Counted from the first letter of the stretch, positions 10,434-36,949 are shown. The stretch: DNA of 64,000 nt from a virus (IMGVR_UViG_3300028886_000035:128001-192000); one strand, 5' to 3'. Program-made: numbers and translations. The notes: generated by a model from the letters alone, not told the origin.

Positions 10434-10829
10434 TTAGATACCGAAGAATTTCATATATTCATAGATAAAATCTTCTTTGTAATTATCTAAAATTTCTTCA
10501 AAGATTTTATGATGAATGAATTTATTATTTTTTTCTTTAATAAACTGATTTTTGATAGTTATAAACGGAGTACAATTTAATTCCCTTAATGTAAAACAAT
10601 GACCATTACTGTAATCTTTTTTTATAGAACACCATTGATTATAATGGACAGTATGTACATGTACACTATCGTCTGCAAAAAAAACATAGATGTAATAAGC
10701 AGATTTTTTCATTTCACATACATATCCAAAACAATATTGAATATCAAAATCATTGATATAAAATTTAAATGGAGTAAGTAAAGCACGGTTTTCTTTTTGA
10801 GATAAGAAAAAATTGGTTAATTTTCGCAT
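10434..10829 (-). CDS. Small hypothetical protein, C-terminal G-hydrophobic family
   Basis: 131 aa, ends YEYMKFFGI*. Confidence 0.65.
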   Translation of the reverse strand: MRKLTNFFLSQKENRALLTPFKFYINDFDIQYCFGYVCEMKKSAYYIYVFFADDSVHVHTVHYNQWCSIKKDYSNGHCFTLRELNCTPFITIKNQFIKEKNNKFIHHKIFEEILDNYKEDFIYEYMKFFGI

Positions 10830-12283
10830 GGGAACAACAACTCACTTTTCGTTCTACCTGAAAGTTTAATCATCGTAGTAAGTTTCTTCTGATACTCATT
10901 AATCAGAAGATTGAGTTTCTTCACAATGGTTGCATGGTTATCAGAAACATGGTCTACCCAATCATAATTAACTTTTGCTAAACCACAATTGGTTTTTACG
11001 AAATATGTATCATACTTATAGCTATCAGGTTTATATGTATCCTGTTTATCAATAACAACGTAACCGTGTTCAAATTCAAGGGTTTTAAACCCATTGACTT
11101 TAGCATAATCTTCCAAACGGAAAGTCGCTTCAGTAAGAGTATCGAATGCCAATTCCAATTCTGTATTATCAACGTTCTTTTTGTGTTTTGTTACGTTAAA
11201 TCCACAATTAATAAACTCTTTTGGAGTCTGCGGAAGATACGTAGAACCATAACGATAGTATCTCTTATTATATCTTCTGCTAAAAGCTATAGGAGTAGTC
11301 ATGCGAACCGTAACGGAACTGTTATCAATAATGGGGACAGATATACGGTTATATTCCTTGCCTAAAATACGTTTTGCAAGAGCTTTCTGATGACGGTTCA
11401 TTTTATCAAATCTCGTAAATAAAGTCATAAATGTATCATAGATGATTTTTGTTTCTTTGTTTACGTTTTTGATACGTTTCAGGACGTTGAATATATCAAA
11501 TGGAGTAGTAAGAGTAAAATATGCCTCGCCAATTTTAATTCTGCAAAAAACATTAGGAACATTAAGTGCATTTTTCCTTTTTACAGAAATAATGTATTTC
11601 TCTTCCTTACTTGCATTTTTGTCATAAGGATAAGAATTATATCTTCTATTACCAATATTAGGAGAAGCACTATCATGAATAACGTTAAATAAAGACATAA
11701 TAATACCATCGTTTTTATGATAATAGTAAAGAGATTTAAAAATATCATCTTTATTAATATCATTATGAGTATAGTCATATCCAAAATCTTTATCCTTATT
11801 TACGAGCTTGTAAAATTTGAAAGAATTTTTTGGTGTTTCAATATTATAGTAAGTTTTAAAACCTGATTTAACATATACCTTTTTACCAAAAAAGTTATTA
11901 AAACAGACTAATGTATAACTACTATTAGATTTAGCCATACAATCATCAAGAATGAGAACATCATATAATTCAATATTGCTATCAGGTTCGGTTTCATTAA
12001 AATGAATGTGGTCATAATCATAAGTAGAATAAGAGCCATTCCAACTACTTACGGAATAAGACATATTATAAGTAGTGAAATAACCAATTTTATTCTGTAC
12101 TTCACGTTCCAGAGTTTGAAGGTACTGTTCCGTATTTTTATTGTTAAGTTTATTTCCGTTATATTTAACAACAACAATACGATTATTATACATAGCTGTA
12201 GAATACATGATACGATTTTTTGTAAAACTATGATTAAGAATATCTTCATTCAAATCAATTAAATATTTTCTAAATGATTTCAT
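10817..12283 (-). CDS. Hypothetical protein, paralog of 12419..13765
   Basis: Shared blocks IL.xSFT, CFNNFxGxK, VRMxTPIxF and YFVxxxxG; own TTGACA promoter and GGAGG RBS. Confidence 0.8.
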   Translation of the reverse strand: MKSFRKYLIDLNEDILNHSFTKNRIMYSTAMYNNRIVVVKYNGNKLNNKNTEQYLQTLEREVQNKIGYFTTYNMSYSVSSWNGSYSTYDYDHIHFNETEPDSNIELYDVLILDDCMAKSNSSYTLVCFNNFFGKKVYVKSGFKTYYNIETPKNSFKFYKLVNKDKDFGYDYTHNDINKDDIFKSLYYYHKNDGIIMSLFNVIHDSASPNIGNRRYNSYPYDKNASKEEKYIISVKRKNALNVPNVFCRIKIGEAYFTLTTPFDIFNVLKRIKNVNKETKIIYDTFMTLFTRFDKMNRHQKALAKRILGKEYNRISVPIIDNSSVTVRMTTPIAFSRRYNKRYYRYGSTYLPQTPKEFINCGFNVTKHKKNVDNTELELAFDTLTEATFRLEDYAKVNGFKTLEFEHGYVVIDKQDTYKPDSYKYDTYFVKTNCGLAKVNYDWVDHVSDNHATIVKKLNLLINEYQKKLTTMIKLSGRTKSELLFPCEN

Positions 12284-12418
12284 TGTTAATTAACCTCCCA
12301 CTTTGTATTTCTTTCTTTGTTAATATTATAATAACATATTTTGTTTCATTTGTCAATAGTTTTAATTAATTTTTTTAAATAAAATCCCTATCTACATAGA
12401 TAGGGATTAGGGAAGGTA

Positions 12419-13765
12419 TCAATTTTCTTTTTTAATAAGACTATTAATAAATGAATTTACGTCTGTTCCACGCATTTTAGCCATTGTCGTGATATATTTA
12501 TCGTATTCGTCACGCAAAGCGATTGTACGGCGATACAGAGAGTTTTTGGGGAGTTTCTTTTTATCTTTTGTCTCCCATTTAGCGGTAACTAAATCAATAT
12601 TGGTAAACCCTGTAATACTATTAACGAAATAATCGTTGTTTTCTTCTTTCGTTCCTTTGATTACAACTTTTCCGTTTTTAAAATCGACAACTTTAAATCC
12701 ATTGTCTTTATACTGTTCAATATCAGGATAATTATAAATAAGAGATTCTACCAAAATATTGATAGCTTTCATATCATTTTTATCAACGTCACCTGTAATT
12801 TCAAAACTATTGTCGTACGTCATTTTATCATCTTTACAGAAAGAATGAAAATAGTTCTTATCTTTGTTAAAATAGTACTGTGTACTATCATCAAAGAAAC
12901 CATAGTTGAAACCAATAGGCGTAATCATGCGTACACGCACATTACCATTATTGAAAACGTCATTATGGATAGAGTCAAAATTCTTATTCAAGAATTTCTT
13001 ACTGATTTCAATTTCTTCATTCGTCATTTTTTCAAAATCCTTAAACATCACTTCAAAATATTTCTGAAGCGTATTCATATTTTTATCATCTTTCATGGCT
13101 CTAAAAATGAAGAAAATCTGTTCAATGACATAGATAGGATAAGGAACATTATCAATGATAATTGTGCAATATAACTGCGGAATGATATATTTATTGTATT
13201 TGCACAATTTATTAAAAGCATCATCAAAATCATCTTCAGCACTATCCAAAATCATATCTTGTGGAATACGGAGTCCAAAGATAATAGCGTCATTTCCTTT
13301 ACGATAAACAACAGATTTGTGAATATCAGGAGCACCATTAATACAGGTATCGACAAATGAAACCTCGTTATTTTTTGCATTCAAATACATAGATTTGTAT
13401 AAATACATATTATCGGAATAATTCTTATTTTTAAATGTGGTAAGTAGACCAATTTTGTGTCCCATAAAATTATTGAAACAATAAATTGAATAGCTCATAC
13501 CATTAGAAGCATACATTTTATGCGAATTGATAGTCATAATATTGTACATTTCTACGTTGTCAATATTATTTTCTTCCATATTATTCACGAAGAAATCTCG
13601 TTCACTAGGCGTACAATTGTTTTTGTCGAATTGTCCAATTATAATATCATATTTGTTTTCTTCATCGCGAATATACTTATGAGTAATAGGATGTTCTGTG
13701 AAAGAATTTTCAAGAATTTCATCTTCAATTTGTGTAAACAACTTGTTCATTTTATTTACCTCCAA
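12419..13765 (-). CDS. Hypothetical protein, paralog of 10817..12283
   Basis: 448 aa; start probably at MNKLF after GGAGG; own promoter and terminator. Confidence 0.8.
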   Translation of the reverse strand: MEVNKMNKLFTQIEDEILENSFTEHPITHKYIRDEENKYDIIIGQFDKNNCTPSERDFFVNNMEENNIDNVEMYNIMTINSHKMYASNGMSYSIYCFNNFMGHKIGLLTTFKNKNYSDNMYLYKSMYLNAKNNEVSFVDTCINGAPDIHKSVVYRKGNDAIIFGLRIPQDMILDSAEDDFDDAFNKLCKYNKYIIPQLYCTIIIDNVPYPIYVIEQIFFIFRAMKDDKNMNTLQKYFEVMFKDFEKMTNEEIEISKKFLNKNFDSIHNDVFNNGNVRVRMITPIGFNYGFFDDSTQYYFNKDKNYFHSFCKDDKMTYDNSFEITGDVDKNDMKAINILVESLIYNYPDIEQYKDNGFKVVDFKNGKVVIKGTKEENNDYFVNSITGFTNIDLVTAKWETKDKKKLPKNSLYRRTIALRDEYDKYITTMAKMRGTDVNSFINSLIKKEN

Positions 13766-13873: not shown

Positions 13874-14359
13874 TTATAATCCATCTTGTATAATGAATAG
13901 TTTATAAATTTGTGCCATGTTTCTATGTTGTAAATAAAATTTAAACAAGTCTAATAATAACTGTACATCTTCATTATCATAATAATGTTCTTGTAAAAAT
14001 GTTAGCAATTCACCATATAATTTATCGTTAGAAATTGTATAATTGAAATTCTCCATAGTAGCTGGTTTTTTGAATTTCCAATTATCGGTAGAAAAGGTAA
14101 ATGAACGTTCAGAATTCAGTTTATGTATTGTAATCAAATGAATTTTAATACTGTATTTTGCTACATTATAGTTTATAGTTGGTTTTTCCCTATAAGTTGT
14201 AAATTTAGAATAAGTATAGTCTAAACTGTAATCTATTTGAATTTCTATTGATGAACTGATAACATGATGAATTAGTTTATATCCTGTAATTTGATAATCT
14301 TGAAACATGGAATTGTTTCTCACTTTGATTATATCAGAAGTTTCTATTTTATAATCCAT
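13874..14359 (-). CDS. G-hydrophobic C-terminus family protein
   Basis: Ends KLFIIQDGL*. Confidence 0.65.
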   Translation of the reverse strand: MDYKIETSDIIKVRNNSMFQDYQITGYKLIHHVISSSIEIQIDYSLDYTYSKFTTYREKPTINYNVAKYSIKIHLITIHKLNSERSFTFSTDNWKFKKPATMENFNYTISNDKLYGELLTFLQEHYYDNEDVQLLLDLFKFYLQHRNMAQIYKLFIIQDGL

Positions 14360-14866
14360 ATTTTTTTACTCCCATTAATTGTACTTAATTTATTATTTTA
14401 TGTTTATGTAATAAATAACAGTACAAAGATGAAAAAAGGTATAAAAATAATCATATATTTATAATTATATGATTTATTTTTTTGACATTTTCATAAAATC
14501 TATAAAAGATTTTATATAGTTGTTGTAATAAGCAGGAAAATTATAAATAGATTGATACCAAATAAAATGATTTTCACATTTTTCTTTGTAATTGACTAAT
14601 ATATCAACAATAAAATGTTGATTTGTAGAATAAAAAAAGTTTATATGATATTTATATTGGTTTATATATAGCAAGTATTCATAAGAAATATTCAACATGT
14701 TTACATTTGATGCTGGTGCAACAACAATTTTTTTTGTAAAATGAATAGAAATAACAAAATTATATAATTTTATATATAGTTGATATAGTATCGTTATAAT
14801 TGAATTAATGGGAGAATATATAATCATTAAAAATTGTAATATATCTTTCATAGTATTATATTCCAT
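14349..14866 (-). pseudogene. Probably truncated G-hydrophobic family member
   Basis: ORF 14474..14866 stops in an A-run. A downstream frame ends VKKYGL* at 14349, overlapping the next ATG as neighbouring genes do. Confidence 0.4.
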
Positions 14867-15293
14867 GAAACATAATATATCGTTTATATAATAAATTCTT
14901 ATCCATATATTTTAAGAAATATGTGGGATAGGTTTGTTTTATCATGTTTTGATATATGTGTGGATTATCCTCTGTATGAATAGAATATAATAAAGTATCA
15001 AGTGATTTTCGCATTTGATGTTTATTTAAATATGGTGGTTTCATAAATGATATAGACATAGCAACATTTTTTTCATAACATGATATATGTAAACGTATAT
15101 GTATATCTAAATCTAATTTATTTACATATACAATATATTGAAAACGATATACATCGTATGTATTTTTTGATATACTTGTATCAGTGGTATATATATCATA
15201 TGTATCGCATAATAATATATATAATGATTTGGGTATTTGTGATTTGGGTATTTGTGATTTAAAATTTTTAACGGAAAGAAAATGCATAATCAC
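14856..15293 (-). CDS. G-hydrophobic C-terminus family protein
   Basis: Ends KRYIMFHGI*; in-frame 15-bp duplication (KSQIP x2). Confidence 0.65.
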   Translation of the reverse strand: MIMHFLSVKNFKSQIPKSQIPKSLYILLCDTYDIYTTDTSISKNTYDVYRFQYIVYVNKLDLDIHIRLHISCYEKNVAMSISFMKPPYLNKHQMRKSLDTLLYSIHTEDNPHIYQNMIKQTYPTYFLKYMDKNLLYKRYIMFHGI

Positions 15294-15892
15294 ATACCTA
15301 CTTTCTGAATTGATTTTATAATAAATTTGTTGTAGTCTTTCTTTACATATTTATTGAAAGAATATTTAATAAAACAGTAAATAAAAATATATTCACAAAT
15401 CATACTAATTAAATCCATGTTTGTTGATTTAATATATGATTTTATAGATTTTGATAAAGCATGATAATCCGTTTCAAAATTTATAGCATTGTTTTGGTCA
15501 AAACAATGTTTATTATATTTTATTTTGATATTTGGATAATAATATACTAAGTCATCTTTAATATTAAAGTTTTTTAAATAAAAAAATACACTAGTAGATT
15601 TATTGAATAACAAAATGTTATAAAATTTTGTTGAAAGTAGATTGAAATCTTTATATTTATTCATATTCTTCTTATTAAAATCAAAATATTTATCTAGTCT
15701 TTTTATAGCTAATTCACAAATACCATATTTATCTTTCATATAAGTTAATTGTTCTGTTTCTTCATATATTTTAGAATATAGTATAATGTACAATAAATTA
15801 ATTGGTAATGTAATAATATGAAATAATGGTATAATAATATTATACCATTTATTGATAATCCAATTAAATAGGTTCTTTAAATGCCAAAACAT
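15290..15892 (-). CDS. G-hydrophobic C-terminus family protein
   Basis: Ends KSIQKVGM*. Confidence 0.6.
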   Translation of the reverse strand: MFWHLKNLFNWIINKWYNIIIPLFHIITLPINLLYIILYSKIYEETEQLTYMKDKYGICELAIKRLDKYFDFNKKNMNKYKDFNLLSTKFYNILLFNKSTSVFFYLKNFNIKDDLVYYYPNIKIKYNKHCFDQNNAINFETDYHALSKSIKSYIKSTNMDLISMICEYIFIYCFIKYSFNKYVKKDYNKFIIKSIQKVGM

Positions 15893-16278
15893 TTTGTCAC
15901 ATCATCCATTGTAAAATGAGGAAAATTTTTTAAAGCGTTTGGCTGAACTTCGTAATAAGAAGATAAATCGTGACGAATAAAATCAGTTAAAATATTCTTC
16001 ATTTTGATATGCAGTTTATTTTTATTTTTTTCAGTCAAAAAATATTTATATGTTTTTGTCCAAAATTCATTCATGCAATATGTACAATAAAAATATTGTT
16101 TATCAAAATTATAATTAATTGTATATATTACATTAGTTGTATTATTAGAGATATGGTTATGACCAAAAAGTTCAATAGTTTCTTTATTTGCATAAAAAAT
16201 TTGTTGTTCCCATGTACTTGTTTCGTTCATTAAAGACGTAGTAATAAAACCTTTTTTGTAAACGTTTTTTATAACCAT
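15877..16278 (-). CDS. G-hydrophobic family protein, close paralog of 16291..16701
   Basis: YTINxxxD...NIL...NFPHxT shared; ends KCFGI*. Confidence 0.7.
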   Translation of the reverse strand: MVIKNVYKKGFITTSLMNETSTWEQQIFYANKETIELFGHNHISNNTTNVIYTINYNFDKQYFYCTYCMNEFWTKTYKYFLTEKNKNKLHIKMKNILTDFIRHDLSSYYEVQPNALKNFPHFTMDDVTKCFGI

Positions 16279-16290
16279 AATTAGTACCTC

Positions 16291-16701
16291 TTATAAGCCA
16301 AAAGTTTTTACAATAATTTCTTTGGTAATGTGTGGAAAGTTCATAATATAATTTTTTGTATATCGAACTTTTTCATGATGATAATTTTTTAGTTTATCTA
16401 CTAAAATATTTTCTAATTTTTTATAAAGAACTTTTTCTTTATTATAATCACAAATATATCTATGTTCATCAAAACCACAATCATCTATTGCATATACCAT
16501 ATACAGAGTATTGTCATTATAATCAAAATTGATTGTATACTCTAAAATATGGTCACTTTCAGAATAAAAATAGCAATTGTACATAGAAAAATAGCAACTG
16601 TACATAGGAATGGATTGTTTAGAATGATAGATTTGTTGATTTTTCCATCTATCTATTTCTCTTTGTGATACAAATGTATTATGGTAATTGATAATAGGCA
16701 T
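16291..16701 (-). CDS. G-hydrophobic family protein
   Basis: Ends IIVKTFGL*; AGGAG RBS and TTGACA promoter upstream. Confidence 0.7.
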   Translation of the reverse strand: MPIINYHNTFVSQREIDRWKNQQIYHSKQSIPMYSCYFSMYNCYFYSESDHILEYTINFDYNDNTLYMVYAIDDCGFDEHRYICDYNKEKVLYKKLENILVDKLKNYHHEKVRYTKNYIMNFPHITKEIIVKTFGL

Positions 16702-22266: not shown

Positions 22267-22269
22267 CTT

Positions 22270-22617: not shown

Positions 22618-22620
22618 ATA

Positions 22621-24705: not shown

Positions 24706-24783
24706 TATACCATTTCTCCTTTCATATAATTATTCTTATATAAATAGTTTATCAAAAAACAGGTGTTTTGTCAACACCTGTTT

Positions 24784-26039: not shown

Positions 26040-26054
26040 ATCATCTTACCTCTA

Positions 26055-26426
26055 TCATAATCCATAATTAATTATATATGCTTTTTGCACAATATTCTGT
26101 GGTAATATATCAACTATTTTACGTACACGTTTAAACCAATGCTGTTTAAATTCACTATAACTATAGTATCCTGAATTTTCTCCATGACATATATTGTTAT
26201 CTTTTAAATAAAGTTTTAATTCCCCATCATGAAAAATTGGTTTAAATTCGGTACAAGCTAAACCTCTAATGCAAACTCGATTTGTGTTACTCATATGAGC
26301 ATTAAAACGAACATTGAATTTATTGTTTAAGTATATTTCATAGTCATGACGATGTTCTTCATCAATAATTTTGATATTACAAGCTCCAAATCTATGATAT
26401 GCTTCAATTGAACGAATATAAATCAT
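26055..26426 (-). CDS. G-hydrophobic family protein
   Basis: Ends VDILPQNIVQKAYIINYGL*; promoter and AGGAG RBS. Confidence 0.7.
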   Translation of the reverse strand: MIYIRSIEAYHRFGACNIKIIDEEHRHDYEIYLNNKFNVRFNAHMSNTNRVCIRGLACTEFKPIFHDGELKLYLKDNNICHGENSGYYSYSEFKQHWFKRVRKIVDILPQNIVQKAYIINYGL

Positions 26427-26521
26427 ATTTAATCTCTCCTTTTATAAAAAATTATATCAAAATTTTTTATTTTTGTCAACAGTTTTTTGAATAGAAAAAC
26501 GACTATCAACTAGATAGTCGT

Positions 26522-26875
26522 TTATAATCCAAAAGATATAATATAAAATTGTTTTAAACAACGTTTTTTAACAAATCTTATGATTTTTTTTGATGTTTTA
26601 AAATCCATAGGCACATCATATTTAAATGCAGCTTGTTTTGTAATATCCATAATTTTAATTCCTTTTGAAGTTAAACGTACTTTATAATGACTACTATAAT
26701 AAAAATTATATCTAATTATTAATATAAAATCTCTTTTATTATTATGACTATAATAATAGTCTATATTTAAAATACCATCTTTATATGTTAATTGAAATTG
26801 ACTATATGTTTCATTGAATATTTCTATATATTTCGTTTTAATATGTTGAAAACGAAAATATGAATTTATATTCAT
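26522..26875 (-). CDS. G-hydrophobic family protein
   Basis: Ends KQFYIISFGL*, followed by a terminator. Confidence 0.65.
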   Translation of the reverse strand: MNINSYFRFQHIKTKYIEIFNETYSQFQLTYKDGILNIDYYYSHNNKRDFILIIRYNFYYSSHYKVRLTSKGIKIMDITKQAAFKYDVPMDFKTSKKIIRFVKKRCLKQFYIISFGL

Positions 26876-27225
26876 ATACCTCTACCTATCGTTACCATTT
26901 TAAAAATTTCTTCTTTATAATTTCTATATATTTTTTTTGCTTTTATAACATAATCCTTGTCAAAAATTTTTTCTATAAACCATATTGTTCTATACTTATC
27001 GTTTTTACCAACAATATTAGCATTAATTTTAATGCCATCTTTATTTGTTATATCAAAATGGAAGCTATCTGCAACATTATGATGAAAATTTTCATAGCAA
27101 TAAGAACTACTTGTATTGACTCTAATATGTATGCGATAAGTTTCACCATGATATGTAATTTCAGTTGTATATAACGATAAATGGTCATTGTATATTATAG
27201 TACCATATTTTGTTATTTTGCTCAA
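26872..27225 (-). CDS. G-hydrophobic family protein
   Basis: Ends KMVTIGRGI*. Confidence 0.65.
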   Translation of the reverse strand: MSKITKYGTIIYNDHLSLYTTEITYHGETYRIHIRVNTSSSYCYENFHHNVADSFHFDITNKDGIKINANIVGKNDKYRTIWFIEKIFDKDYVIKAKKIYRNYKEEIFKMVTIGRGI

Positions 27226-27228
27226 TAT

Positions 27229-27711
27229 TTATAATCCTTCTGTATAAGTAATAATGTTTTGAATAAATCGTTGACCATCATTTATTAAAAAATCATCAAA
27301 AAAAATACAAATGTTTTTATATTGATTGATGTTTTGCTTGTGATTTCTCATATTTATATAGTATTTTTGTTTTTTATAATTGGTTATACTAAAATTTCCT
27401 TTTCGATATGGTATTTCTATTTTTTGTGATATAAATTTTAATCCATTTTTAATTTTTATATCATACGCTCTATGAGTATAGTGAATATCTTTGTCTATTA
27501 TAGATAAAACAAGAGTTTTATGGTTATTATGTTTCATTTCACCATAACTGTTCATGATATAATCATTGGCAATTGTAATATCTATATTAGCCTTTTTGTC
27601 TTGATGAATAATATCAAACCGATAATGATATGTATCATGATATTTTTGTGAACACTTATTTCTATATACAATTTTAACATTTTGTTCTTCAAATGTCCAT
27701 TGTTTTTGCAT
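27229..27711 (-). CDS. G-hydrophobic family protein
   Basis: Ends NIITYTEGL*. Confidence 0.65.
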   Translation of the reverse strand: MQKQWTFEEQNVKIVYRNKCSQKYHDTYHYRFDIIHQDKKANIDITIANDYIMNSYGEMKHNNHKTLVLSIIDKDIHYTHRAYDIKIKNGLKFISQKIEIPYRKGNFSITNYKKQKYYINMRNHKQNINQYKNICIFFDDFLINDGQRFIQNIITYTEGL

Positions 27712-27949
27712 TAAAATTCACCACTCTTTATGTTAAAAGTTTTATCTTCTACAATAAATATATAATAAAAATTGACTTATTATTTATTTACTATAACTAT
27801 TAATTATAGTTTAAATAATAAGTCATAAACCAAATTTTTTACAAAATTCTTGTTTAAAGAATGTTTCTAAATGAGTTAATTTTTTATTCATTTTCTTATC
27901 TAGGTTAATCATTTCTTCTTCATTTGGCATATTAGTAATTTGTTTAATA

Positions 27950-28087
27950 CGTTTATATTATTGTCAATGCGTCTATCAGTCTAACGATGACCGTATTGGA
28001 GCTATAAATATTCAACACCTCGGAACTATGTGGATTTCCGGAGATAACCATCCTCGCTACGAAAGAATAACAACTGCTTCGGAGTAA
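27950..28087 (+). pseudogene. tnpB: TnpB (IS200/IS605 family) C-terminal remnant
   Basis: Hand translation RLYYCQCVYQSNDDRIGAINIQHLGTMWISGDNHPRYERITTASE* matches the TnpB zinc-finger end plus RuvC-III (CxCGYxxNDDRIGAxNI); GC content higher than flanks. Confidence 0.8.
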
Positions 28088-28218: not shown

Positions 28219-28563
28219 TTAAATGCCTTTTGTATATGATAAAAATAATTTTGCATAATTGATAATTTCATTTTTATATTTAGCATAATATTTTATTATA
28301 CTCTGTCGTTCTTTTTCAGGAATATCGTTAAAATCATCATAATTGTAAATTTTTCCTTGGTTGTTTATATCTAAAGTCATGTAATATTCACAATCTTTTA
28401 CAAATACATCAACAACACAACAAGTTTCATATGAACAATCTTCTGTGACCTCATATTCTTCATATTGCAATATTAATTGTATATTATCATTGATATAAAT
28501 TGAAGCATATTTATCTATAAATGGATTTGTTAGATAATATTTTGTCTGTGTTATCATTTCCAT
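28219..28563 (-). CDS. G-hydrophobic family protein
   Basis: Ends KLFLSYTKGI*; own promoter and RBS. Confidence 0.7.
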   Translation of the reverse strand: MEMITQTKYYLTNPFIDKYASIYINDNIQLILQYEEYEVTEDCSYETCCVVDVFVKDCEYYMTLDINNQGKIYNYDDFNDIPEKERQSIIKYYAKYKNEIINYAKLFLSYTKGI

Positions 28564-28661: not shown

Positions 28662-28900
28662 TTATAATCAGTATAAAATCACATATATATCTGCAATTTT
28701 TCTGTATGGTAAAGAATATTGTCCAACAAAATTATATATGGATTAAATAATTGATAATATAGTGTCTTGTATAACACACAATCACTTCATTTGTTGATTT
28801 GCTCGATTTAAATTCTATAACTTCTTTTTCCCATTTTCAAACGAAATATGTAAATTATTATTTAAAATTTTGCAAAACAAATAATTAATCATAATATCAT
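28662..28900 (-). pseudogene. Decayed G-hydrophobic family member
   Basis: Terminal codons AAA ATT GCA GAT ATA TAT GTG ATT TTA TAC TGA TTA TAA = KIADIYVILY*L*, consistent with GGA mutated to TGA. Confidence 0.5.
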
Positions 28901-28902
28901 CA

Positions 28903-29280
28903 TTATATACCATTAACTAATATAAAGAATTGTTTTGTATTAACTAAAAATTCATCGTGATATTTAGATACAATTTGTCTAGTTATTTTTTGTGTTCGTT
29001 CACCAATAACTTTTGTAAATTTTTCTCTATTAAATTCCATATGATATATATCATTAATAATGTAAGTTTGTTTTTCTGTACGACCCAATATAATATTTAT
29101 TTCTAATCCACTATGTATTTTAAACATATATTTTAAACGCTCATTGTATGCAAATGTTAAACGAACATTATCCTTAATATAATATTCGTAAAAATCATCA
29201 AATATATACGGATTTATATCTTTATGTGGAATAGTATATTTGCATTGTTTTAATGTAAAATCTTTCATAATCCACCACAA
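28903..29280 (-). CDS. G-hydrophobic family protein
   Basis: Ends KQFFILVNGI*. Confidence 0.65.
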   Translation of the reverse strand: MWWIMKDFTLKQCKYTIPHKDINPYIFDDFYEYYIKDNVRLTFAYNERLKYMFKIHSGLEINIILGRTEKQTYIINDIYHMEFNREKFTKVIGERTQKITRQIVSKYHDEFLVNTKQFFILVNGI

Positions 29281-29591
29281 CGAATATAAAAATTTTTCAT
29301 TAAATCAGTTAAAATTTGTTTATGCGGAATAAATTTATCATCTAATTCATCTATATTTCTTTTATTTTTTATGTCAAAAACATCTAAAAAATTTTTAACT
29401 GTAATAACAGTAAGATAATTTTTTTGATGATTACAAAATCCAATTTTAAAATCACTATCCATATTATAATAGAACAGTACTTCTAAATTCCAATTATAAT
29501 AAATTTCTCTAATTTCATAAAAACTTTTATTTATTATTACTCGTTCTTTTAATACCCAAGGCATGATGTTACATTCCTTCCCATATAACAC
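29265..29591 (-). CDS. G-hydrophobic family protein
   Basis: Ends KNFYIRCGGL*. Confidence 0.6.
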   Translation of the reverse strand: MLYGKECNIMPWVLKERVIINKSFYEIREIYYNWNLEVLFYYNMDSDFKIGFCNHQKNYLTVITVKNFLDVFDIKNKRNIDELDDKFIPHKQILTDLMKNFYIRCGGL

Positions 29592-29766
29592 GACATCGTT
29601 TTGTTAATTCTATTAATTCAGATTGATATTTATCTATAATTGGCATTAAATACTTTAGTTGTTTAGAATGTATATATGATAATTTGTTATTACAAACTGT
29701 AAAATCAATTTCCCCATAGCCTAAAATGTTTCTTTTTTCCTTTATATATGATTGTTTACAATCCAC
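29569..29766 (-). CDS. G-hydrophobic family protein (short)
   Basis: Ends RCRVIWEGM*. Confidence 0.55.
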   Translation of the reverse strand: MDCKQSYIKEKRNILGYGEIDFTVCNNKLSYIHSKQLKYLMPIIDKYQSELIELTKRCRVIWEGM

Positions 29767-30094
29767 TTTGATAAGTAACTAACATTCTATAATAATCCAT
29801 GATTTTGTTATAATTCTTTTCTACATAATTTTTAATTTCATCATAATAAATGTGTTTTTTATCATTGCTGTCTATATAAAATATGTTATCATCTAAACTA
29901 TGTTTTAATACATATGTATATCTGTATTTATTTATTTTCAATGTGATGTGTTTTTTGTAGGTAAATTTTTCATAAACAATTTCAATTTGATAGTCATTGT
30001 AACTATCAAAAATATTCATTTTATTAATAGAACAAAAATTACCTTTTTTGTTTATTATAATTTTATTACTTTGAAATCGCCCCATAATTATCAC
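29756..30094 (-). CDS. G-hydrophobic family protein
   Basis: Ends MLVTYQSGL*. Confidence 0.65.
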   Translation of the reverse strand: MIIMGRFQSNKIIINKKGNFCSINKMNIFDSYNDYQIEIVYEKFTYKKHITLKINKYRYTYVLKHSLDDNIFYIDSNDKKHIYYDEIKNYVEKNYNKIMDYYRMLVTYQSGL

Positions 30095-30474: not shown

Positions 30475-30930
30475 CTATATCCCAAATTCAATTATTATAT
30501 CTTTTTGTATATCTTTCTTAATTCTGTTATATTTTGATAAATAATTTGCTAATTCTATAGTTGCTCTTTTTAAATAAAATTGATATTCATCATCTGTGTA
30601 CCATCCAATATATTCCATATCATTAAATAATGTTTTTATGTCACATTCTCCATACATGAAATTTAATGGTATGAAGCTTATTTGTAATTCACTTATATCT
30701 GATTGTTTTTCTTTGAAATATATTTTTTTATTATAAATTTCAAAATCATATTGATTTTTTTTGCCTTTAAAGTATAGATTAATAGTTATTTGCAAATTCC
30801 AAAATTCACTTTGTATTTTATACCATACAGTTTTCATTTTTATACTCCATATATCTTTACTAACTGCGTATAAACCATTTGTTGTTTTCATAAATTTGGT
30901 GATATATTTTTTTCTTCTACGAAATCTCAA
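30475..30930 (-). CDS. G-hydrophobic family protein
   Basis: Ends KDIIIEFGI*. Confidence 0.65.
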   Translation of the reverse strand: MRFRRRKKYITKFMKTTNGLYAVSKDIWSIKMKTVWYKIQSEFWNLQITINLYFKGKKNQYDFEIYNKKIYFKEKQSDISELQISFIPLNFMYGECDIKTLFNDMEYIGWYTDDEYQFYLKRATIELANYLSKYNRIKKDIQKDIIIEFGI

Positions 30931-31001
30931 TTCATAACGTCTCGTTCATACATGGTTTCTAGTTCATTACATTCATCCATATATAATTCTTTAACCATAA
31001 T

Positions 31002-31445
31002 TTACATTCCATTCATTAATATTTGACTTTCTTTTACTCTTTTGAATAAAATCCTGTTATATTTAAAAAATGGGTCATAATAATCGGCATAAATATCTTT
31101 ACTTTCCATTTGTATATAGAATTTTTTATTATTACGATATAATTCTTGAATTAATTTCTGCGTAGCAATAATATATGCAGGTGTAATATCATCATATTTT
31201 AATACTATATGAATGAATTTATCATATTTGTTTTTAATGAATGTCATCATTTTAAAATTTTTATTTTCTTTTGTATCGTTATTGACAATATAATTGATTT
31301 TATATTTTTTTACTGTATCTCCTATTTTAGTTGACTGTAATTTTATATCTAACATTTCTCTCTCTCCTATTACATTAATTATATCATTTTTTGTCAACAA
31401 TTTCAAGTATTTTTTGATTACTTTTTGTATATATGAAAAGGACAC
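31002..31445 (-). CDS. G-hydrophobic family protein
   Basis: Ends SQILMNGM*; true start probably MLDIK. Confidence 0.6.
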   Translation of the reverse strand: MSFSYIQKVIKKYLKLLTKNDIINVIGEREMLDIKLQSTKIGDTVKKYKINYIVNNDTKENKNFKMMTFIKNKYDKFIHIVLKYDDITPAYIIATQKLIQELYRNNKKFYIQMESKDIYADYYDPFFKYNRILFKRVKESQILMNGM

Positions 31446-31466: not shown

Positions 31467-31820
31467 TCATATTCCATTACTATATACCCAAAATTCTTTT
31501 ATCTCTCTTTTTAAATCTTTTTTCATATCAGAAAAATCTTTTAATATCTTATTCATTCGTTCTTCTTTTTTATACCATATCGTTTGATATGTTTTTAAAT
31601 ATTTAATGCAATTTATATCCTCTATAACATATCCCAAACTATCTTCTCCATATCGAAATCCAAATTCTATTCCACAATTTTCTTTTCTGATACTAACAAC
31701 CTTGTTTTGTGAAAATCGTAACCATAAAAATATACCGTTTTTATTCCATATTTTATAACTTTTATAATTAGGAACATATTTATTTAAATAATTGGTACAA
31801 GTAAGTTCATATCCCATCAA
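31467..31820 (-). CDS. G-hydrophobic family protein
   Basis: Ends KEFWVYSNGI*. Confidence 0.65.
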   Translation of the reverse strand: MMGYELTCTNYLNKYVPNYKSYKIWNKNGIFLWLRFSQNKVVSIRKENCGIEFGFRYGEDSLGYVIEDINCIKYLKTYQTIWYKKEERMNKILKDFSDMKKDLKREIKEFWVYSNGI

Positions 31821-32170
31821 AGACTATCATCCCTTTTTTTATTGATTCAATATATTCTTTATATCCATGTAATCCTATTTGTTTTTCATACCTTAATAAG
31901 TTGTCATGATAGAATTGTTTGATTATTCCATTTATGTGATATATTTTGCTTATTAAAATGATATTTGCTATATGAAAATAATCCCATTCTTATATATAAG
32001 ACTTTTTTGTCTTTTTGATTATAATCTATCGTATAATTTTGAATCCACCAATTTAATTCATATCTTTTTCTGGTTTTTATTAAATTTATTCTTAGTATAC
32101 CATCATTTATATTAATTATTCTGTACTATTCAGGACGAATTACTTTTAAATGCTCATTGCGTGATATTTT
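31807..32170 (-). pseudogene. Frameshifted G-hydrophobic family member
   Basis: 3' frame reads KQFYHDNLLRYEKQIGLHGYKEYIESIKKGMIVFDGI*, with stops upstream. Confidence 0.55.
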
Positions 32171-32175
32171 TATTT

Positions 32176-32550
32176 TCATAATCCATTTACTCTCGTATAC
32201 ATATCTTTGCAATGATTATGGAATAGTTCTATATTGCTACGAATGATATTACACCATTCATTTCTTTTTTCTTTTATTCCTCTTTTAAAACAATCATTTA
32301 AATGAATACAATTATCCCTCGTTTCAATGGAAAATTTGTACCCATCTATTCCATCTATTACATCTATTCTTATATCAAATATCTGTAAAAAATTATTGTG
32401 AAAATAAAAGTATCCACTCCTATCTAATATTTTATATGTGATTGTCATTTTTATTTCATTATCTATTAGATAAAAGTTTTTATACCATATTTTTTTTGAT
32501 AGATAATCGTTGACGGGTTTTTTGCTATTCTTTTTTAGTTCTATTTCCAT
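32176..32550 (-). CDS. G-hydrophobic family protein
   Basis: Ends KDMYTRVNGL*. Confidence 0.65.
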   Translation of the reverse strand: MEIELKKNSKKPVNDYLSKKIWYKNFYLIDNEIKMTITYKILDRSGYFYFHNNFLQIFDIRIDVIDGIDGYKFSIETRDNCIHLNDCFKRGIKEKRNEWCNIIRSNIELFHNHCKDMYTRVNGL

Positions 32551-32607
32551 GCCATTTCACCTTACGATATATTTGCTACGTTTTAATATTTCTATATTAG
32601 AAAAAAA

Positions 32608-32922
32608 TTATAAACCACTTGTGTATACAATTAAATTTCCTAGAACATCAAGAGTTAAATATTTTCTGATGTATTGCGTTTGCTCTTTGTAGCCTACCAA
32701 AGTGTAAATTTTATACCCTTCATCTATCCGTAAGAAAGTGCTCTTGTTAAAAATCTCTTTTTCTTCGGTTTTATCAACTATCAAATAAAATTTTATTTCT
32801 AGGATATTTTGCAAGAAACTGCTTTTACCCGAATGGATTACAATTTTTAGTTTCCCTATATCTGTATCAATATAAATTTCACTTCGATAAAGCGTTCCTT
32901 CTTTCTGCATTAATTTATTCAT
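32608..32922 (-). CDS. G-hydrophobic family protein
   Basis: Ends NLIVYTSGL*. Confidence 0.65.
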   Translation of the reverse strand: MNKLMQKEGTLYRSEIYIDTDIGKLKIVIHSGKSSFLQNILEIKFYLIVDKTEEKEIFNKSTFLRIDEGYKIYTLVGYKEQTQYIRKYLTLDVLGNLIVYTSGL

Positions 32923-33067: not shown

Positions 33068-33444
33068 TTATATTCCTATTTGCTCATTGATGATAGCGTT
33101 TAATTTATCTTGGTTTAAAAATTGTAAAATGTTTTGTATGTTTTTTCTATATCTTGTTCCTTTGTTCCGTATATCTGTTTATTTACTAATCGTAAATAGT
33201 CAAATTCTATATTATTATAATTATATATATATCTAATATAGCTAAATTGACAGAACTTTGTACCTTCTATCGTAATAGTTATGTATACTTTGTAATTGAG
33301 TACAAAGATACATAAGGTTATATGGTAGTAATATTCTTTTGTTCTATATTCATATTCTCTAAATTTGGTTATATTATTTATTTTATTACTTGAATTATTC
33401 CATGACTTCTTAAATTCTATTTTATATGTTTTATATTGCTCCAT
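33068..33444 (-). pseudogene. G-hydrophobic family member with a 1-nt frameshift near its 3' end
   Basis: ORF stops at KTFYNF*. One extra T in the T-run gives ...FLNQDKLNAIINEQIGI*. Confidence 0.6.
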
Positions 33445-34055: not shown

Positions 34056-34160
34056 AATGTATTTTTATATTGATTTATTTCACATTGAAATATGAATGAA
34101 GTATGGTTTTAATTTAACTGTTTTATTGTACCATTTAAATTATTTAATTTCATATTTATT

Positions 34161-34733: not shown

Positions 34734-35195
34734 TTATAATCCTTCTTCAGAAATTAATATATAGCAATAATCATTAATCTGTTGAATAAATGATTTAATC
34801 TGATTAAGGTCATTTTCTGATAAATGTTCTTTTTTATTAGTAGGGATAGATTGTAAAAATTGATATTGTAAAGTATCTAAAAGTGTATTATTATTTTCGA
34901 TTTGGTAATAATTAACTCCGTGCAAAATATATCGTAATGAAGTAGATTGAGATTTTTGTTGTTCTATGAATTGAAATGCTTGTTTTTCATCTAGGATAAT
35001 TTGCAAAGGCATAAATTGAGTTGGATTTTTGAAAAAAAATTTTTTAATAGAAATGTTATATAATGGTTTATTATTGTTATGTTTGACCGATTGAATATTT
35101 TTATAATCAGTAATCAGATTGATATTCAGATAGTAATGGCAAAAGAAAATATGTAATCTATAATTTGGTGATGATGATGGATAATAAGCGTGCAT
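34734..35195 (-). CDS. G-hydrophobic family protein
   Basis: Ends YILISEEGL*. Confidence 0.6.
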   Translation of the reverse strand: MHAYYPSSSPNYRLHIFFCHYYLNINLITDYKNIQSVKHNNNKPLYNISIKKFFFKNPTQFMPLQIILDEKQAFQFIEQQKSQSTSLRYILHGVNYYQIENNNTLLDTLQYQFLQSIPTNKKEHLSENDLNQIKSFIQQINDYCYILISEEGL

Positions 35196-35224
35196 GATTA
35201 ATAAACCTCATTTATGATAAATCA

Positions 35225-35746
35225 TTATAAACCTCTCACATAGGAAAGATTATTTCTAGTTTTATGAAAGATAATAGGTAATGTTTGCAGTAAATTTTGT
35301 TTTAGATTTGTATAAATATAGTTATCTTGAACATTTGTTATAATACGTTTGGATAGTGAATTAAAATTATGATTAAATTTCATAGGAACATAGTCCACAT
35401 AAATTAATTCATTTTGATTGTTTAAATGTGTAATATAAATATCTAATGATGGGTTAGGAATAGTTAAGGTAATGTATAAATCGGATTGATTATTTACTAC
35501 ATTCAATTGTTTTTTATGTTGAAAATACCCTTGTTTCAATGCAAAATCATTGGCAGTAAAACAAAGATTATAAGTAAGTAAATATGTATTTTCATTTATT
35601 GATGGATAAGATAATGGGAAAGAAAAAGGATATGTATAATCGAATTGACTATGAATATAAGTCATTGGTAGTTCACCTTCTTTACATACCATCATATAAT
35701 GCGTGGGTAGACTGCATGATATGAATAATATATTTGTTGTAGACAT
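35225..35746 (-). CDS. G-hydrophobic family protein
   Basis: Ends NLSYVRGL*. Confidence 0.6.
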   Translation of the reverse strand: MSTTNILFISCSLPTHYMMVCKEGELPMTYIHSQFDYTYPFSFPLSYPSINENTYLLTYNLCFTANDFALKQGYFQHKKQLNVVNNQSDLYITLTIPNPSLDIYITHLNNQNELIYVDYVPMKFNHNFNSLSKRIITNVQDNYIYTNLKQNLLQTLPIIFHKTRNNLSYVRGL

Positions 35747-36341
35747 TAAGATAACTTTTTAATAAAAGATAACTTTTTAATAAATGTTCAATAAAAGTAT
35801 CTGTTGTATACTTATAAATAATATTATTGATAAAAAGATTTGTTTTATGGTTTGGCATATTCGGGAAAAATTTTTTCAATTGTTTTGTAATATGATTGTA
35901 ATCTAGGTCAATACAAAAGGTGATTTGGCATAAATTATCAGTATTACCTGTTTTTTTATTTGTGGATTGAATAGTTGTATTCACATCAAAATATTTTCTT
36001 AATTTATGAAAATTATAAAATTGTAACTGATTTTTTACATGATAAAAAGAAAACTTTAATGTAATACTATTTTGATAAAGGCTTTTATTGTTATGATTTT
36101 TATGGTAATTAGCAGAATTGATATTATCATATATAATTATCTGATAATCTTCATAATACGTATTATCGGATATATGAAAATTTTGTTTCATATATAAACT
36201 TGTATTTGTCTGCTCATTAGTCATAATATAATGATAACATAACAGTTCTTTTGCCACGGACGGTTTATGATAATGATATAACTGTTGTCGATAAATAGAT
36301 AACTGTTTATCTTTAAAGTATGAATTGTATTCAGGTATCAT
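35682..36341 (-). CDS. G-hydrophobic family protein
   Basis: Ends THALYDGM*; in-frame 18-bp duplication. Confidence 0.6.
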   Translation of the reverse strand: MIPEYNSYFKDKQLSIYRQQLYHYHKPSVAKELLCYHYIMTNEQTNTSLYMKQNFHISDNTYYEDYQIIIYDNINSANYHKNHNNKSLYQNSITLKFSFYHVKNQLQFYNFHKLRKYFDVNTTIQSTNKKTGNTDNLCQITFCIDLDYNHITKQLKKFFPNMPNHKTNLFINNIIYKYTTDTFIEHLLKSYLLLKSYLNVYNKYIIHIMQSTHALYDGM

Positions 36342-36343
36342 TT

Positions 36344-36949
36344 TTATACTCCGAAATAATGAATGTATTCTACTTCTGTAAAGGGGTTGATATATTCATA
36401 CATGAGTTTATTTATGTTTTTTAAAATACGATTATATTTTTTTTGATTGAGTCTTGTTTTGAATATTTCCAAATGTTCATCAGGGACAAAATACAATGAT
36501 AGATTTCTTGATGTTTGTTGATAAGCAGATACCATATTCTTAATCAAAAAATGGTTTAAATAAGTATAATTTTTAGAACATAGTTCTTTACTTGCAAAAA
36601 AAGAATAATTATAATTATTGCTATAGCGTTGTGCAGTCAATTCGTCGGTAATATCCATAAATTCTATACTCACAAAAACCTGTTTTTTATTTGTAATCTC
36701 AAATTCTATTTTGAAACGAAATATATCATAATTGAATGTGCATTTGCATGATATACGATTTAGCAGATTAACAAAAATAGGGGCTTGTTTTATTTGTTTT
36801 GGAATAGGAATATCATATACAATTGTTACATTGGAAAGATTTTTGTATTGATTGATATGATAAATACTAGAATAGAACGCACGATTGACGCGCTTTTTTT
36901 CTTTATTAATGGGAAATTTTGGCAGGATTGCGTTTTTCATATATTTCAC
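36344..36949 (-). CDS. G-hydrophobic family protein
   Basis: Ends EYIHYFGV*; promoter upstream. Confidence 0.65.
   Translation of the reverse strand: MKYMKNAILPKFPINKEKKRVNRAFYSSIYHINQYKNLSNVTIVYDIPIPKQIKQAPIFVNLLNRISCKCTFNYDIFRFKIEFEITNKKQVFVSIEFMDITDELTAQRYSNNYNYSFFASKELCSKNYTYLNHFLIKNMVSAYQQTSRNLSLYFVPDEHLEIFKTRLNQKKYNRILKNINKLMYEYINPFTEVEYIHYFGV

What the first reader, a model, noticed from the sequence alone, without database searches (positions are those of the whole stretch)
10434..36949. About 33 dissimilar small proteins all end in helix-Gly-hydrophobic-COOH: candidate C-terminal sorting or docking tag
Seen: 33 intact minus-strand ORFs (65-219 aa) end in G[LIMVF]*. Most have a K/R-x-hydrophobic-hydrophobic stretch just before it (KQFYIISFGL, KEFWVYSNGI, KDMYVYTNGM, KAMYIMIWGV, KNFYIRCGGL, KDMYTRVNGL). 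Their N-terminal bodies are largely unalignable by eye. From 22 to 37 kb nearly every gene conforms. All four Gly codons and all three stop codons are used, and terminator-proximal genes conform too, so the constraint looks protein-level. The tail, ligase-operon and almost all early-cassette genes lack the ending. Inference: a shared C-terminal signal read by one partner, such as capsid/ejection loading, a scaffold or adaptor, or a PDZ/tail-specific or Clp protease. This would carry a hypervariable payload library, for example anti-defence effectors. I know of no described family matching this.
Basis: partly seen in the sequence, partly recalled or inferred. Interest (0 to 1): 0.92.

Follow-up and report, generated by a model that had tools for sequence, protein, structure and literature searches.

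The report
Phage gene array with Gly-hydrophobic ends
An uncultured 281-kb cattle-rumen phage carries about 35 fast-evolving small genes whose proteins look unrelated yet all stop on glycine plus one oily residue, most likely a runaway gene family whose only surviving common part is its C-terminal closure, which may also serve as a shared docking piece.

Summary
In the window, 35 of 94 minus-strand ORFs of 60 aa or more end in G-[LIMVF]-stop, against about 1 expected. Thirty-three of them lie at 10.4-37 kb. Genome-wide the count is 40 of 384.

The constraint acts on the protein. Gly codon use matches the genome, all three stops occur, and distances to the next gene run from -65 to +1289 nt. 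Every non-conforming ORF inside the 22-37 kb array is a decayed member.

Related rumen-phage contigs carry the same arrays: 91 proteins in 46 BLAST clusters, with Gly invariant. Orthologues are under purifying selection (dN/dS 0.26). No library knows the family, and a 1.84-billion-protein search returned 7 relatives.

The bodies are not alignable family-wide. However, the shared part is larger than a dipeptide: about 13 residues strongly and about 30 weakly. Crude propensities show one build throughout: a beta-rich body, then C-terminal amphipathic helices. An AF2 model of one subfamily gives an 8-strand meander, two helices, then G-L.

My best reading (0.5) is a tandem, birth-and-death paralogue family with a conserved C-terminal closure. 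A portable docking tag (0.3) is not excluded, because the exact chain end is kept far better than in other paralogues of this genome. No reader was found.

This scan has noted different shared endings in two other huge phages.

The parts
10434..10829 (-). Isolated family member, 131 aa, ends F-G-I
   Evidence: It sits downstream of the 488-aa gene, which it overlaps by 13 nt.
13874..14359 (-). Family member, 161 aa, ends D-G-L
   Evidence: A hairpin plus T-run follows its stop, so no downstream gene is coupled to it.
14856..16701 (-). Four consecutive members (145, 200, 133, 136 aa) just downstream of the ligase operon
   Evidence: The 133- and 136-aa genes are full-length BLAST paralogues (E 2e-8). 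The 200-aa one has a membrane-like N-terminal stretch.
22051..23367 (-). Promoter-distal end of the main array: members of 71, 115, 126 and 121 aa
   Evidence: Terminator at 22049-22025. Orthologues exist in L001, L002 and L008. The 71-aa gene has dN/dS 0.12.
23367..23768 (-). Decayed member: in-frame TAA after codon 108, with the tail still readable downstream in the same frame
   Evidence: The intact 134-aa orthologue is at L001:12715-13119.
23765..25281 (-). Three members (177, 144, 165 aa), including the only G-F ending
   Evidence: The orthologue of the G-F gene ends G-L in L001. A hairpin follows 24784.
25294..26426 (-). Three paralogues of the 'I-P-x-D' subfamily (127, 124, 123 aa); this is the modelled subfamily
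   Evidence: Alignments A2/A3. AF2 pLDDT 74.8: strands 2-84, helices 90-107 and 110-121, then G122-L123. RNA-run contigs of three runs span 24.7-26.43 kb.
26451..26479 (-). Perfect TTGACA-17-TATAAT promoter with TG extension, heading the 26.4-24.8 kb unit
   Evidence: RNA contigs start at 26427-26434.
26522..27711 (-). Three members (117, 117, 160 aa)
   Evidence: Terminator at 26523-26497. The 160-aa gene is the best conserved member, 73% identical in the distant array L006.
27829..27963 (-). 3' remnant: only the last 45 codons of a member that is whole in a relative
   Evidence: It matches aa 110-154 of L001:7676-8143.
28219..28563 (-). Single-gene unit, 114 aa, ends K-G-I (Gly codon GGC)
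   Evidence: Promoter at 28614-28586. A G+C-rich hairpin follows the stop.
28674..28913 (-). Decayed copy with several stops
   Evidence: tblastn to L001:6266-6595, 45% identity. Translation.
28903..30094 (-). Four overlapping members (125, 108, 65, 112 aa)
   Evidence: Overlaps of 11-23 nt place the Gly codon at varying distances from the next start. In L001 the orthologue of the first is split by a TnpB-like gene.
30475..31445 (-). Two members (151 and 147 aa); the first uses the only TAG stop
   Evidence: Promoter at 31406-31378.
31467..32922 (-). Three members (117, 124, 104 aa) plus a start-less frame at 31807-31989 that ends D-G-I
   Evidence: Orthologues in L001.
33071..33444 (-). Frameshifted member: body in one frame, tail (ending I-G-I) in another
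   Evidence: Residues 1-109 and 100-125 of L001:168-545 match two different frames.
34734..36949 (-). Promoter-proximal end of the array: four larger members (153, 173, 219, 201 aa)
   Evidence: Promoter at 37000-36971 and upstream terminator at 37053-37027.
55873..56139 (-). Outlying candidate member, 88 aa, ends F-G-M
   Evidence: Its look-alike at 61899-62171 ends G-W. Membership was not tested further.
63721..64000 (-). Outlying candidate member cut by the window end (159 aa in the genome), ends F-G-L

Best explanation
The stretch holds a lineage-specific, tandemly arrayed multigene family. In this phage there are 33 intact genes and at least 4 decayed copies. The products are small, mostly basic, cytoplasmic proteins, encoded in short units that carry host-type promoters.

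All members seem to share one build. A beta-rich, highly variable body is followed by about 30-35 residues of amphipathic helix. The chain then ends with an invariant Gly and one aliphatic residue, with nothing after it.

Most likely the genes arose by repeated tandem duplication. They then diverged by birth-and-death evolution so fast that only the C-terminal closure of the fold stayed recognisable. In this picture the last helix packs on the sheet, Gly caps the helix, and the final side chain with its free carboxylate plugs the domain. The helix-then-Gly-then-Leu order is seen in a model of one subfamily; the packing and plugging are inferred even there. The whole picture is inferred for the other subfamilies.

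The variable sheet surface would then be the working face, each member binding a different, probably host, target in early infection. That functional step is inference. The constant C-terminal module may also be a common interface.
For: Enrichment and clustering.

Tandem array with gene gain, loss, nonsense, frameshift, remnants and a whole-gene deletion variant.

Full-length paralogy where sequence still allows it. A few extra body-only profile links appear at E 3.5e-4 and 1e-3.

The shared signal extends beyond the dipeptide.

Common architecture: bodies are more beta-prone than 158 control small proteins (p=4e-9). The last 35 residues are more alpha-amphipathic than the body in 39 of 43 clusters, against 87 of 158 controls.

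AF2 model of alignment A3: pLDDT 74.8, pTM 0.64, an 8-strand meander plus two helices, ending G-L.

Each member is a real constrained gene: pooled dN/dS 0.26, with identity roughly even along the protein.

Host-type promoters and terminators, and RNA-library contigs that begin and end at them.

Precedent: a lineage-specific expansion of about 35 copies of a small domain in jumbo phage G (PMC7824862).
Against: Family-wide homology of the bodies is not demonstrable. The leave-one-out body HMM beats shuffles by only 1.4 bits (p=0.02). Of 780 body-only profile pairs, 1 has probability above 50.

Only one subfamily could be modelled, and only at medium confidence. The single-sequence model of another member failed (pLDDT 43).

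Lengths span 65-219 aa, and a 71-aa member cannot hold the modelled 8-strand body.

A structural cap does not by itself explain why no member in 46 clusters has even one extra residue. Among 55 less diverged paralogue pairs of the same genome, only 2 share their last two residues.

Residues -8 to -3 are rich in I, V, Y and T, which would also suit a terminal strand.
Confidence: 0.5

Rival explanations
1. Portable address tag. The last 13 residues or so, with the free Gly-hydrophobic carboxyl end, are a docking signal read by one partner. The partner could be a host or phage protein such as an adaptor, a ring-shaped machine or a loading site. The bodies are unrelated or freely exchangeable payloads, so the array is a library of effectors or adaptors sharing one address.
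For: The chain end is exact in 91 proteins of 46 clusters and in relatives down to 31% identity, while Phi swaps freely among L, I, M, V and F.

Other paralogues of this genome do not keep their ends.

Bodies are unalignable and differ three-fold in size.

The only near-misses sit in the distant array L006: one G-to-W change and one 4-residue extension, the latter perhaps from a lost stop.

Unchecked notes from this scan describe other huge phages with their own shared endings. These are a lead only, not support.
Against: No reader was identified. The phage has no PDZ_2, Prok-JAB, ClpP, gp45-type or beta-clamp domain that the searched profiles could detect.

The tail is not set off by a linker. 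It continues an amphipathic helix pattern and, in the model, belongs to the domain.

Four consecutive hydrophobic positions (-7 to -4) suggest burial rather than display.

Within orthologues the tail is only slightly better conserved than the body, 0.80-0.84 against 0.70-0.77.
Confidence: 0.3
2. Timed-removal signal. The non-polar C-terminus is a degron read by a host protease that recognises hydrophobic C-termini, such as an FtsH-, Clp- or tail-specific-protease-type enzyme. Early proteins would then be cleared later in infection.
For: The terminal residue is aliphatic in all members. The units carry host-type promoters, which fits early expression. It is established background knowledge, not tested here, that several bacterial proteases read non-polar C-termini.
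Against: The ending does not match the known ssrA-type signal (Ala-Ala end). An invariant Gly at -1 is not a feature of any degron known to me. The host is unknown. There is no expression-time or stability data. Purifying selection over whole proteins is silent on turnover.
Confidence: 0.1
3. Nucleotide-level or gene-calling artefact. GGN-NTN-stop would reflect a ribosome-binding site for the next gene, a repeat, or mis-called frames.
For: Many array genes abut or overlap, so a GG-rich ribosome-binding site could in principle sit at that position.
Against: Gaps to the next start range from -65 to +1289 nt, and terminator-followed genes conform. Gly codon use equals genome use, and nine different last codons occur. 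Orthologues show dN/dS 0.26. Shadow ORFs lack the ending, 3 of 219.
Confidence: 0.01

Closest known systems
Lineage-specific expansions of small proteins in jumbo phages (e.g. about 35 copies of a zinc ribbon in Bacillus phage G; PMC7824862)
   Same: Dozens of copies of a small protein in one huge phage, restricted to a narrow lineage, with function unknown and possibly regulatory or conflict-related.
   Different: The phage G copies are recognisable as one domain by sequence. Here only the C-terminal 13-30 residues are, and the chain end itself is invariant.
Large-virus multigene families with a variable body and a constant C-terminal docking piece (poxvirus ankyrin proteins with the PRANC/F-box-like end; background knowledge)
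   Same: A fast-evolving, tandemly amplified family in which a variable target-binding part is joined to a conserved C-terminal element that plugs into one host machine.
   Different: There is no sequence or fold relation. The element here is about 13-30 residues ending in a free Gly-Phi carboxylate.
C-terminal docking tails: PDZ and tail-specific-protease ligands, clamp-binding tails (QLxLxL / QL[SD]LF; T4 gp43, gp33, gp55), SSB C-terminal tip (background knowledge)
   Same: A hydrophobic last residue with a free carboxylate, shared by otherwise different proteins.
   Different: Position -2 is not Ser/Thr or hydrophobic, and there is no Gln at the motif start. There are no acidic residues of the SSB type. 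An invariant Gly at -1 is not part of those consensus motifs. No reader gene was found in the phage.
Encapsulin cargo-loading peptides (background knowledge)
   Same: A short C-terminal Gly- and aliphatic-containing peptide shared by unrelated cargo proteins and read by an HK97-fold shell, the fold of phage capsids.
   Different: Those peptides follow a flexible linker. Here the tail continues a helix. The genes here carry host-type promoters and look early, not capsid-assembly-linked.
Schellman-type helix C-cap (helix, then Gly, then a hydrophobic residue folding back; background knowledge of protein structure)
   Same: This is exactly the helix-Gly-hydrophobic order seen in the model of the one subfamily (helix 110-121, G122, L123).
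   Different: A cap motif is a local structural device, not a family. It does not require the chain to stop right after the hydrophobic residue.
MAM33/p32 (gC1qR) fold
   Same: A run of antiparallel strands followed by two C-terminal helices lying on the sheet. It is the recurring top hit of two fold searches, covering 101-105 of 123 residues.
   Different: Scores are at noise level (Foldseek E 0.09, Z 6.4). p32 is very acidic and trimeric. These proteins are basic (median pI 8.7), and no oligomer was supported.

Membership tests
Tandem paralogue expansion (one ancestral gene) | Head-to-tail array on one strand with copy-number flux between relatives | tested here: met
   27 intact members and at least 4 decayed copies fill 22-37 kb. 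Relatives gain and lose members, and one variant lacks a whole gene.
Tandem paralogue expansion (one ancestral gene) | Homology detectable over the whole length between members | tested here: inconclusive
   Met for a few groups: 15877/16291, and the three genes at 25294-26426 plus relatives. Not detectable family-wide.
Tandem paralogue expansion (one ancestral gene) | One common fold | tested here: inconclusive
   One medium-confidence model. The propensity test supports the same beta-then-alpha build in 39 of 43 clusters. Lengths of 65-219 aa argue for variation.
PDZ / tail-specific-protease C-terminal ligands | Hydrophobic last residue with free carboxylate | tested here: met
   L17 I16 M6 V6 F1 over 46 clusters.
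PDZ / tail-specific-protease C-terminal ligands | Ser/Thr (class I) or hydrophobic (class II) residue at -2 | tested here: not met
   Position -2 reads N11 F8 R4 E4 H3 D2 and others, with low information.
PDZ / tail-specific-protease C-terminal ligands | A PDZ-bearing reader available | tested here: inconclusive
   No PDZ_2 match in the phage at E<=1. The host is unknown and could supply one.
ssrA-type ClpX recognition signal | Chain ends in Ala-Ala (L-A-A type) | tested here: not met
   The end is always G then L/I/M/V/F. No ClpP in the phage.
Sliding-clamp-binding tails | Gln at the motif start followed by Leu-x-Leu-x-Leu/Phe | tested here: not met
   Positions -5 and -4 are I/V/T and Y/I, and Gln is not enriched there. 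No gp45-type or beta-clamp domain was found in the phage.
Encapsulin-type cargo-loading peptide | Short motif separated from the cargo domain by a flexible linker | tested here: not met
   The tail continues an amphipathic helix pattern back to about -28 and is helical in the model.
Ubiquitin-like modifier with C-terminal Gly | Beta-grasp fold, with processing and activating enzymes nearby | tested here: not met
   The model is an 8-strand meander plus two helices, not a beta-grasp. No Prok-JAB in the phage. E1 was not searched.
Schellman-type helix C-cap | Helix end, then Gly, then a hydrophobic residue | tested here: met
   Helix 110-121, G122, L123 in the A3 model. For the other clusters this is inferred from the logo only.
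MAM33/p32 fold | Significant structural match over the domain | tested here: inconclusive
   Foldseek best E 0.092, prob 0.75, TM 0.39. VIA Z 6.4 and 6.1 over 101-105 residues, within the noise range stated by the tool.

The most novel reading that the evidence does not exclude
The Gly-hydrophobic-COOH module is a genuine address label that a single, still unknown reader recognises. The array would then be a library of some 35-45 interchangeable effectors or adaptors sharing one docking site. This scan has left unchecked notes of different shared endings in two other huge phages. Together these would point to lineage-specific C-terminal addressing as a general organising principle of huge-phage accessory proteomes.
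Probability: 0.3. Interest if true: 0.85.

Novelty: new variant of a known kind. Interest (0 to 1): 0.6.

Why it matters
Huge phages carry hundreds of small genes that nobody can annotate. Here, one tenth of a phage's genes turn out to belong to one system that is visible only through a two-residue ending.

If the members are diverged paralogues, the array is a clear natural example of how far a phage protein family can drift under conflict-type selection while keeping one structural closure. The ending also gives a simple rule for finding members: a Gly-aliphatic end preceded by the K-x-Phi-Y-I-Y pattern.

If the ending is an address, finding its reader would reveal a hub of host takeover or anti-defence in a clade of rumen phages seen in at least 11 sequencing studies. 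It would also supply a ready-made docking peptide.

Either way, the array offers about 46 sequence-distinct small proteins under purifying selection as candidates for anti-defence or host-takeover screens.

Tried and rejected
Ribosome-binding-site or coupling artefact: rejected.

Known families: Pfam, PHROGs, NCBIfam and PADLOC on all 35 window members gave only scattered single hits at E>=0.0015. A PDB sequence profile gave nothing below E 0.06. ESM Atlas feature search gave best scores of 0.75, below the chance level stated by the tool.

Fold searches of the A3 model gave no match above noise: Foldseek PDB and BFVD (E>0.07), Atlas (TM<=0.53), VIA wide (best Z 6.9).

Single-sequence AF2 of 26522-26875 was unusable, pLDDT 43.

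Homodimer co-fold of the A3 protein (two copies) gave no verdict. It counts neither for nor against.

Family-wide homology of the bodies was not detected. The iterated body-only HMM recruited nobody. The leave-one-out HMM was barely above shuffles. Body-only hhalign gave almost nothing; an earlier, larger run timed out.

Candidate readers in the phage: PDZ_2, Prok-JAB, ClpP, gp45 clamp and beta-clamp were all absent at E<=1. This does not exclude host readers or unrecognisable phage ones.

More relatives: IMG/VR scans, the JGI metagenome scan (which returned only the L001 contig again) and the GTDB genome scan added nothing. Alignments A1 and A3 were too variable for pattern scans.

Rfam on 21-38.5 kb and tRNA search: nothing.

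Literature searches found no description of such an ending in phages.

RNA-library contigs cover the array. However, these are contigs, and DNA carry-over cannot be excluded.

Full report
SETTING. The window is bases 128001-192000 of a single 281,186-bp virus record. The record is 28% G+C and 98% complete by CheckV. Nearly identical DNA occurs in bovine gut/rumen metagenomes and one landfill metagenome. Twenty of the 24 listed runs hold the stretch or part of it, from 11 studies, and six of those runs are RNA libraries. Almost nothing in the region has a known family. The exception is an NAD-dependent DNA ligase at 17192-19051.

- Of 94 non-nested minus-strand ORFs of 60 aa or more, 35 end in G-[LIMVF]-stop, where composition predicts about one. 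Among 219 other ORFs only 3 do.
- Thirty-three lie between 10434 and 36949, exactly as reported.
- In the whole genome 40 of 384 ORFs have the ending. The 240 kb outside the cluster therefore sit near background.
- The intact members are at 10434, 13874, 14856, 15290, 15877, 16291, 22051, 22270, 22621, 23002, 23765, 24271, 24784, 25294, 25665, 26055, 26522, 26872, 27229, 28219, 28903, 29265, 29569, 29756, 30475, 31002, 31467, 32176, 32608, 34734, 35225, 35682 and 36344. These are low coordinates, at the stop codon.

IT IS A PROTEIN-LEVEL CONSTRAINT.
- All four Gly codons occur, in proportions not different from the genome's (p=0.10). Nine different final codons and all three stops occur.
- The distance from the stop to the next start varies from a 65-nt overlap to 1289 nt, and several members are followed by hairpin terminators. 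The GG is therefore not a ribosome-binding site for a neighbour.
- Seventeen orthologue pairs between the window and contig L001 give a pooled dN/dS of 0.26, range 0.10-0.49. Identity is roughly even along the proteins, 0.70-0.84.
- Gly is unchanged in 22 of 22 pairs, and the last residue drifts among L, I, M, V and F.

THE ARRAY IS PURER THAN REPORTED, AND IT TURNS OVER.
- Two ORFs at 22-37 kb lack the ending, and both are broken members. 23442-23768 has an in-frame TAA, with the tail still readable behind it. 33115-33444 is frameshifted, with its tail in another frame.
- Remnants lie at 27829-27963 and 28674-28913, and a start-less frame with the ending lies at 31807-31989.
- Related contigs show the same arrays: L001 (32 of 41 ORFs), L002 (11 of 14), L008 (24 of 26). 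The much more distant L006 has 15 of 22, and most of those have no BLAST match in this genome.
- In L001 a TnpB/Cas12f-like gene splits one member.
- One metagenomic variant lacks a whole member (joint 25699 to 26039).
- Pooled, 91 proteins fall into 46 BLAST clusters, with Gly invariant.
- L006 holds two near-misses: one G-to-W change and one 4-residue extension.

THE CLADE IS NARROW AND THE FAMILY IS UNDESCRIBED.
- A profile of one subfamily found 7 proteins among 1.84 billion representatives. The five whose C-termini were read and are intact end in G-[LIM] at the exact terminus; one more, a 92-aa truncated fragment, does not; one was not re-read here.
- Two word-index searches found 5 and 3 clusters.
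- Pfam, PHROGs, NCBIfam, PADLOC, PDB sequences and the ESM Atlas gave nothing meaningful.

WHAT IS SHARED.
- Anchored at the C-terminus, the logo reads [DEN]-x-Phi-K-x-Phi-[YIF]-[IVT]-[YI]-x-x-G-[LIMV]. A weaker i/i+3/i+4 hydrophobic rhythm runs back to about -28.
- The bodies are not alignable as a family. BLASTP and phmmer link 2-3 pairs. A body-only HMM recruits nobody. Leave-one-out scoring beats shuffles by 1.4 bits. Of 780 body-only profile pairs, one exceeds probability 50.
- A crude architecture test is nevertheless consistent. Bodies are more beta-prone than 158 control small proteins of the same genome (p=4e-9). In 39 of 43 clusters the last 35 residues are more alpha-amphipathic than the body; in controls the figure is 87 of 158.
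- Where sequence permits, paralogy is full-length. This holds for 15877/16291 and for the three genes at 25294-26426 with their relatives, at 20-25% identity.

STRUCTURE.
- With a 17-sequence alignment of that subfamily, AF2 gives a medium-confidence model (pLDDT 74.8, pTM 0.64). It has eight antiparallel strands (2-84), helices 90-107 and 110-121, then G122-L123. This is the helix-Gly-hydrophobic order of a classical helix C-cap.
- No library structure matches above noise. The recurring weak hit is the MAM33/p32 arrangement, a sheet plus two C-terminal helices. These proteins, however, are basic, with median pI 8.7.
- A single-sequence model of another member failed.
- A two-copy co-fold gave no verdict.

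EXPRESSION CONTEXT.
- The best sigma-70-type promoters of the region match 11-12 of 12 positions and have a TG extension. All lie on the minus strand in the gaps before gene groups: 37000, 31406, 28614, 26479 and 21996. Hairpin terminators close several groups.
- Contigs from three RNA libraries begin at 26427-26434 and end at 24706-24790, next to such a promoter and a hairpin, while a DNA contig runs on. This is a weak hint of discrete host-polymerase transcripts. Early timing is inference.

WEIGHING THE READINGS.
For a diverged tandem paralogue family with a structural closure:
- the array and its birth-and-death dynamics;
- full-length paralogy wherever it is still detectable;
- the common beta-then-alpha build;
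- a shared signal of about 30 residues rather than 2;
- four consecutive hydrophobic positions before the end, which suggest burial;
- the model.

For a true docking tag:
- the strict chain end. Among 55 BLAST-detectable, hence less diverged, paralogue pairs elsewhere in this genome, only 2 share their last two residues and 5 end within one residue of each other. Yet 46 unalignable clusters all stop one residue after Gly;
- the three-fold size range.

No reader was found. The phage has no PDZ_2, Prok-JAB, ClpP, gp45-type or beta-clamp domain that the searched profiles could detect, and the host is unknown. The ending fails the defining features of PDZ class I/II ligands, ssrA-type signals, clamp-binding motifs, encapsulin peptides and ubiquitin-like tails (see the membership table).

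I put the paralogue-closure reading at 0.5, the portable tag at 0.3 and a degron at 0.1. The first two are not exclusive: a conserved closure can also be a shared interface.

CONTEXT FROM THIS SCAN. Unchecked notes describe two other huge phages in which many small proteins share a different C-terminal ending. I did not test those notes and they do not count as support. They do raise the value of finding a reader in any one of these systems.

VERDICT. This is a real, strongly non-random, protein-level feature of an undescribed, clade-restricted multigene family. Its tag interpretation is partly supported and not yet separable from the structural-closure reading.

Noticed in passing
L001:4709-6025: A 438-aa TnpB/Cas12f-like ORF (Pfam Cas12f1-like_TNB) sits inside the array of the related contig. 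It splits the orthologue of window 28903-29280 into an N-terminal piece (4402-4638) and a C-terminal piece (6091-6276).
   Followed up: partly
window 19814-21382 (-): A 522-aa protein lies directly downstream of the array. It has four internal repeats, each ending in a K-L-R-A-Y-I-P-like motif. It is 89-98% identical in relatives, far better conserved than the array genes, and has no Pfam or PHROG match. Whether it relates to the array is unknown.
   Followed up: partly
window 27961-28215: A G+C-rich segment (about 47% by eye, against about 24% around it) is absent from all related loci. On the minus strand it folds below shuffles (z -2.4). It coincides with a 5- to 10-fold depth spike in three of four metagenome/metatranscriptome runs, as if shared with other abundant DNA. 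No Rfam match.
   Followed up: partly
window 33445-34733: A 1.3-kb stretch has no credible ORF. It carries tandem repeats of 55/27 bp (33947-34073) and 18 bp x 3.8 (34164-34233). One metagenomic variant skips 54 nt inside the 18-bp array.
   Followed up: partly
window 10817-12283 and 12419-13765 (-): Two neighbouring large ORFs (488 and 448 aa) are paralogues of each other and have no known family. They are interleaved with tagged small genes.
   Followed up: no
window 25699-26039: A landfill-metagenome contig joins 25699 to 26039. It therefore lacks almost exactly one array gene (25665-26039), which suggests recombination between neighbouring paralogues.
   Followed up: no
window 61899-62171 (-): A 90-aa ORF whose tail resembles that of the tagged ORF 55873-56139 ends in G-W instead of G-M. 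The last position may therefore tolerate Trp, or these two genes may form a separate small family.
   Followed up: no
L006:4400-4705 and L006:5484-5828: In the most distant array, one ORF carries the usual tail with Trp in place of Gly, and another has G-I followed by four extra residues. These are the only departures from the exact ending seen among intact-looking array genes.
   Followed up: no
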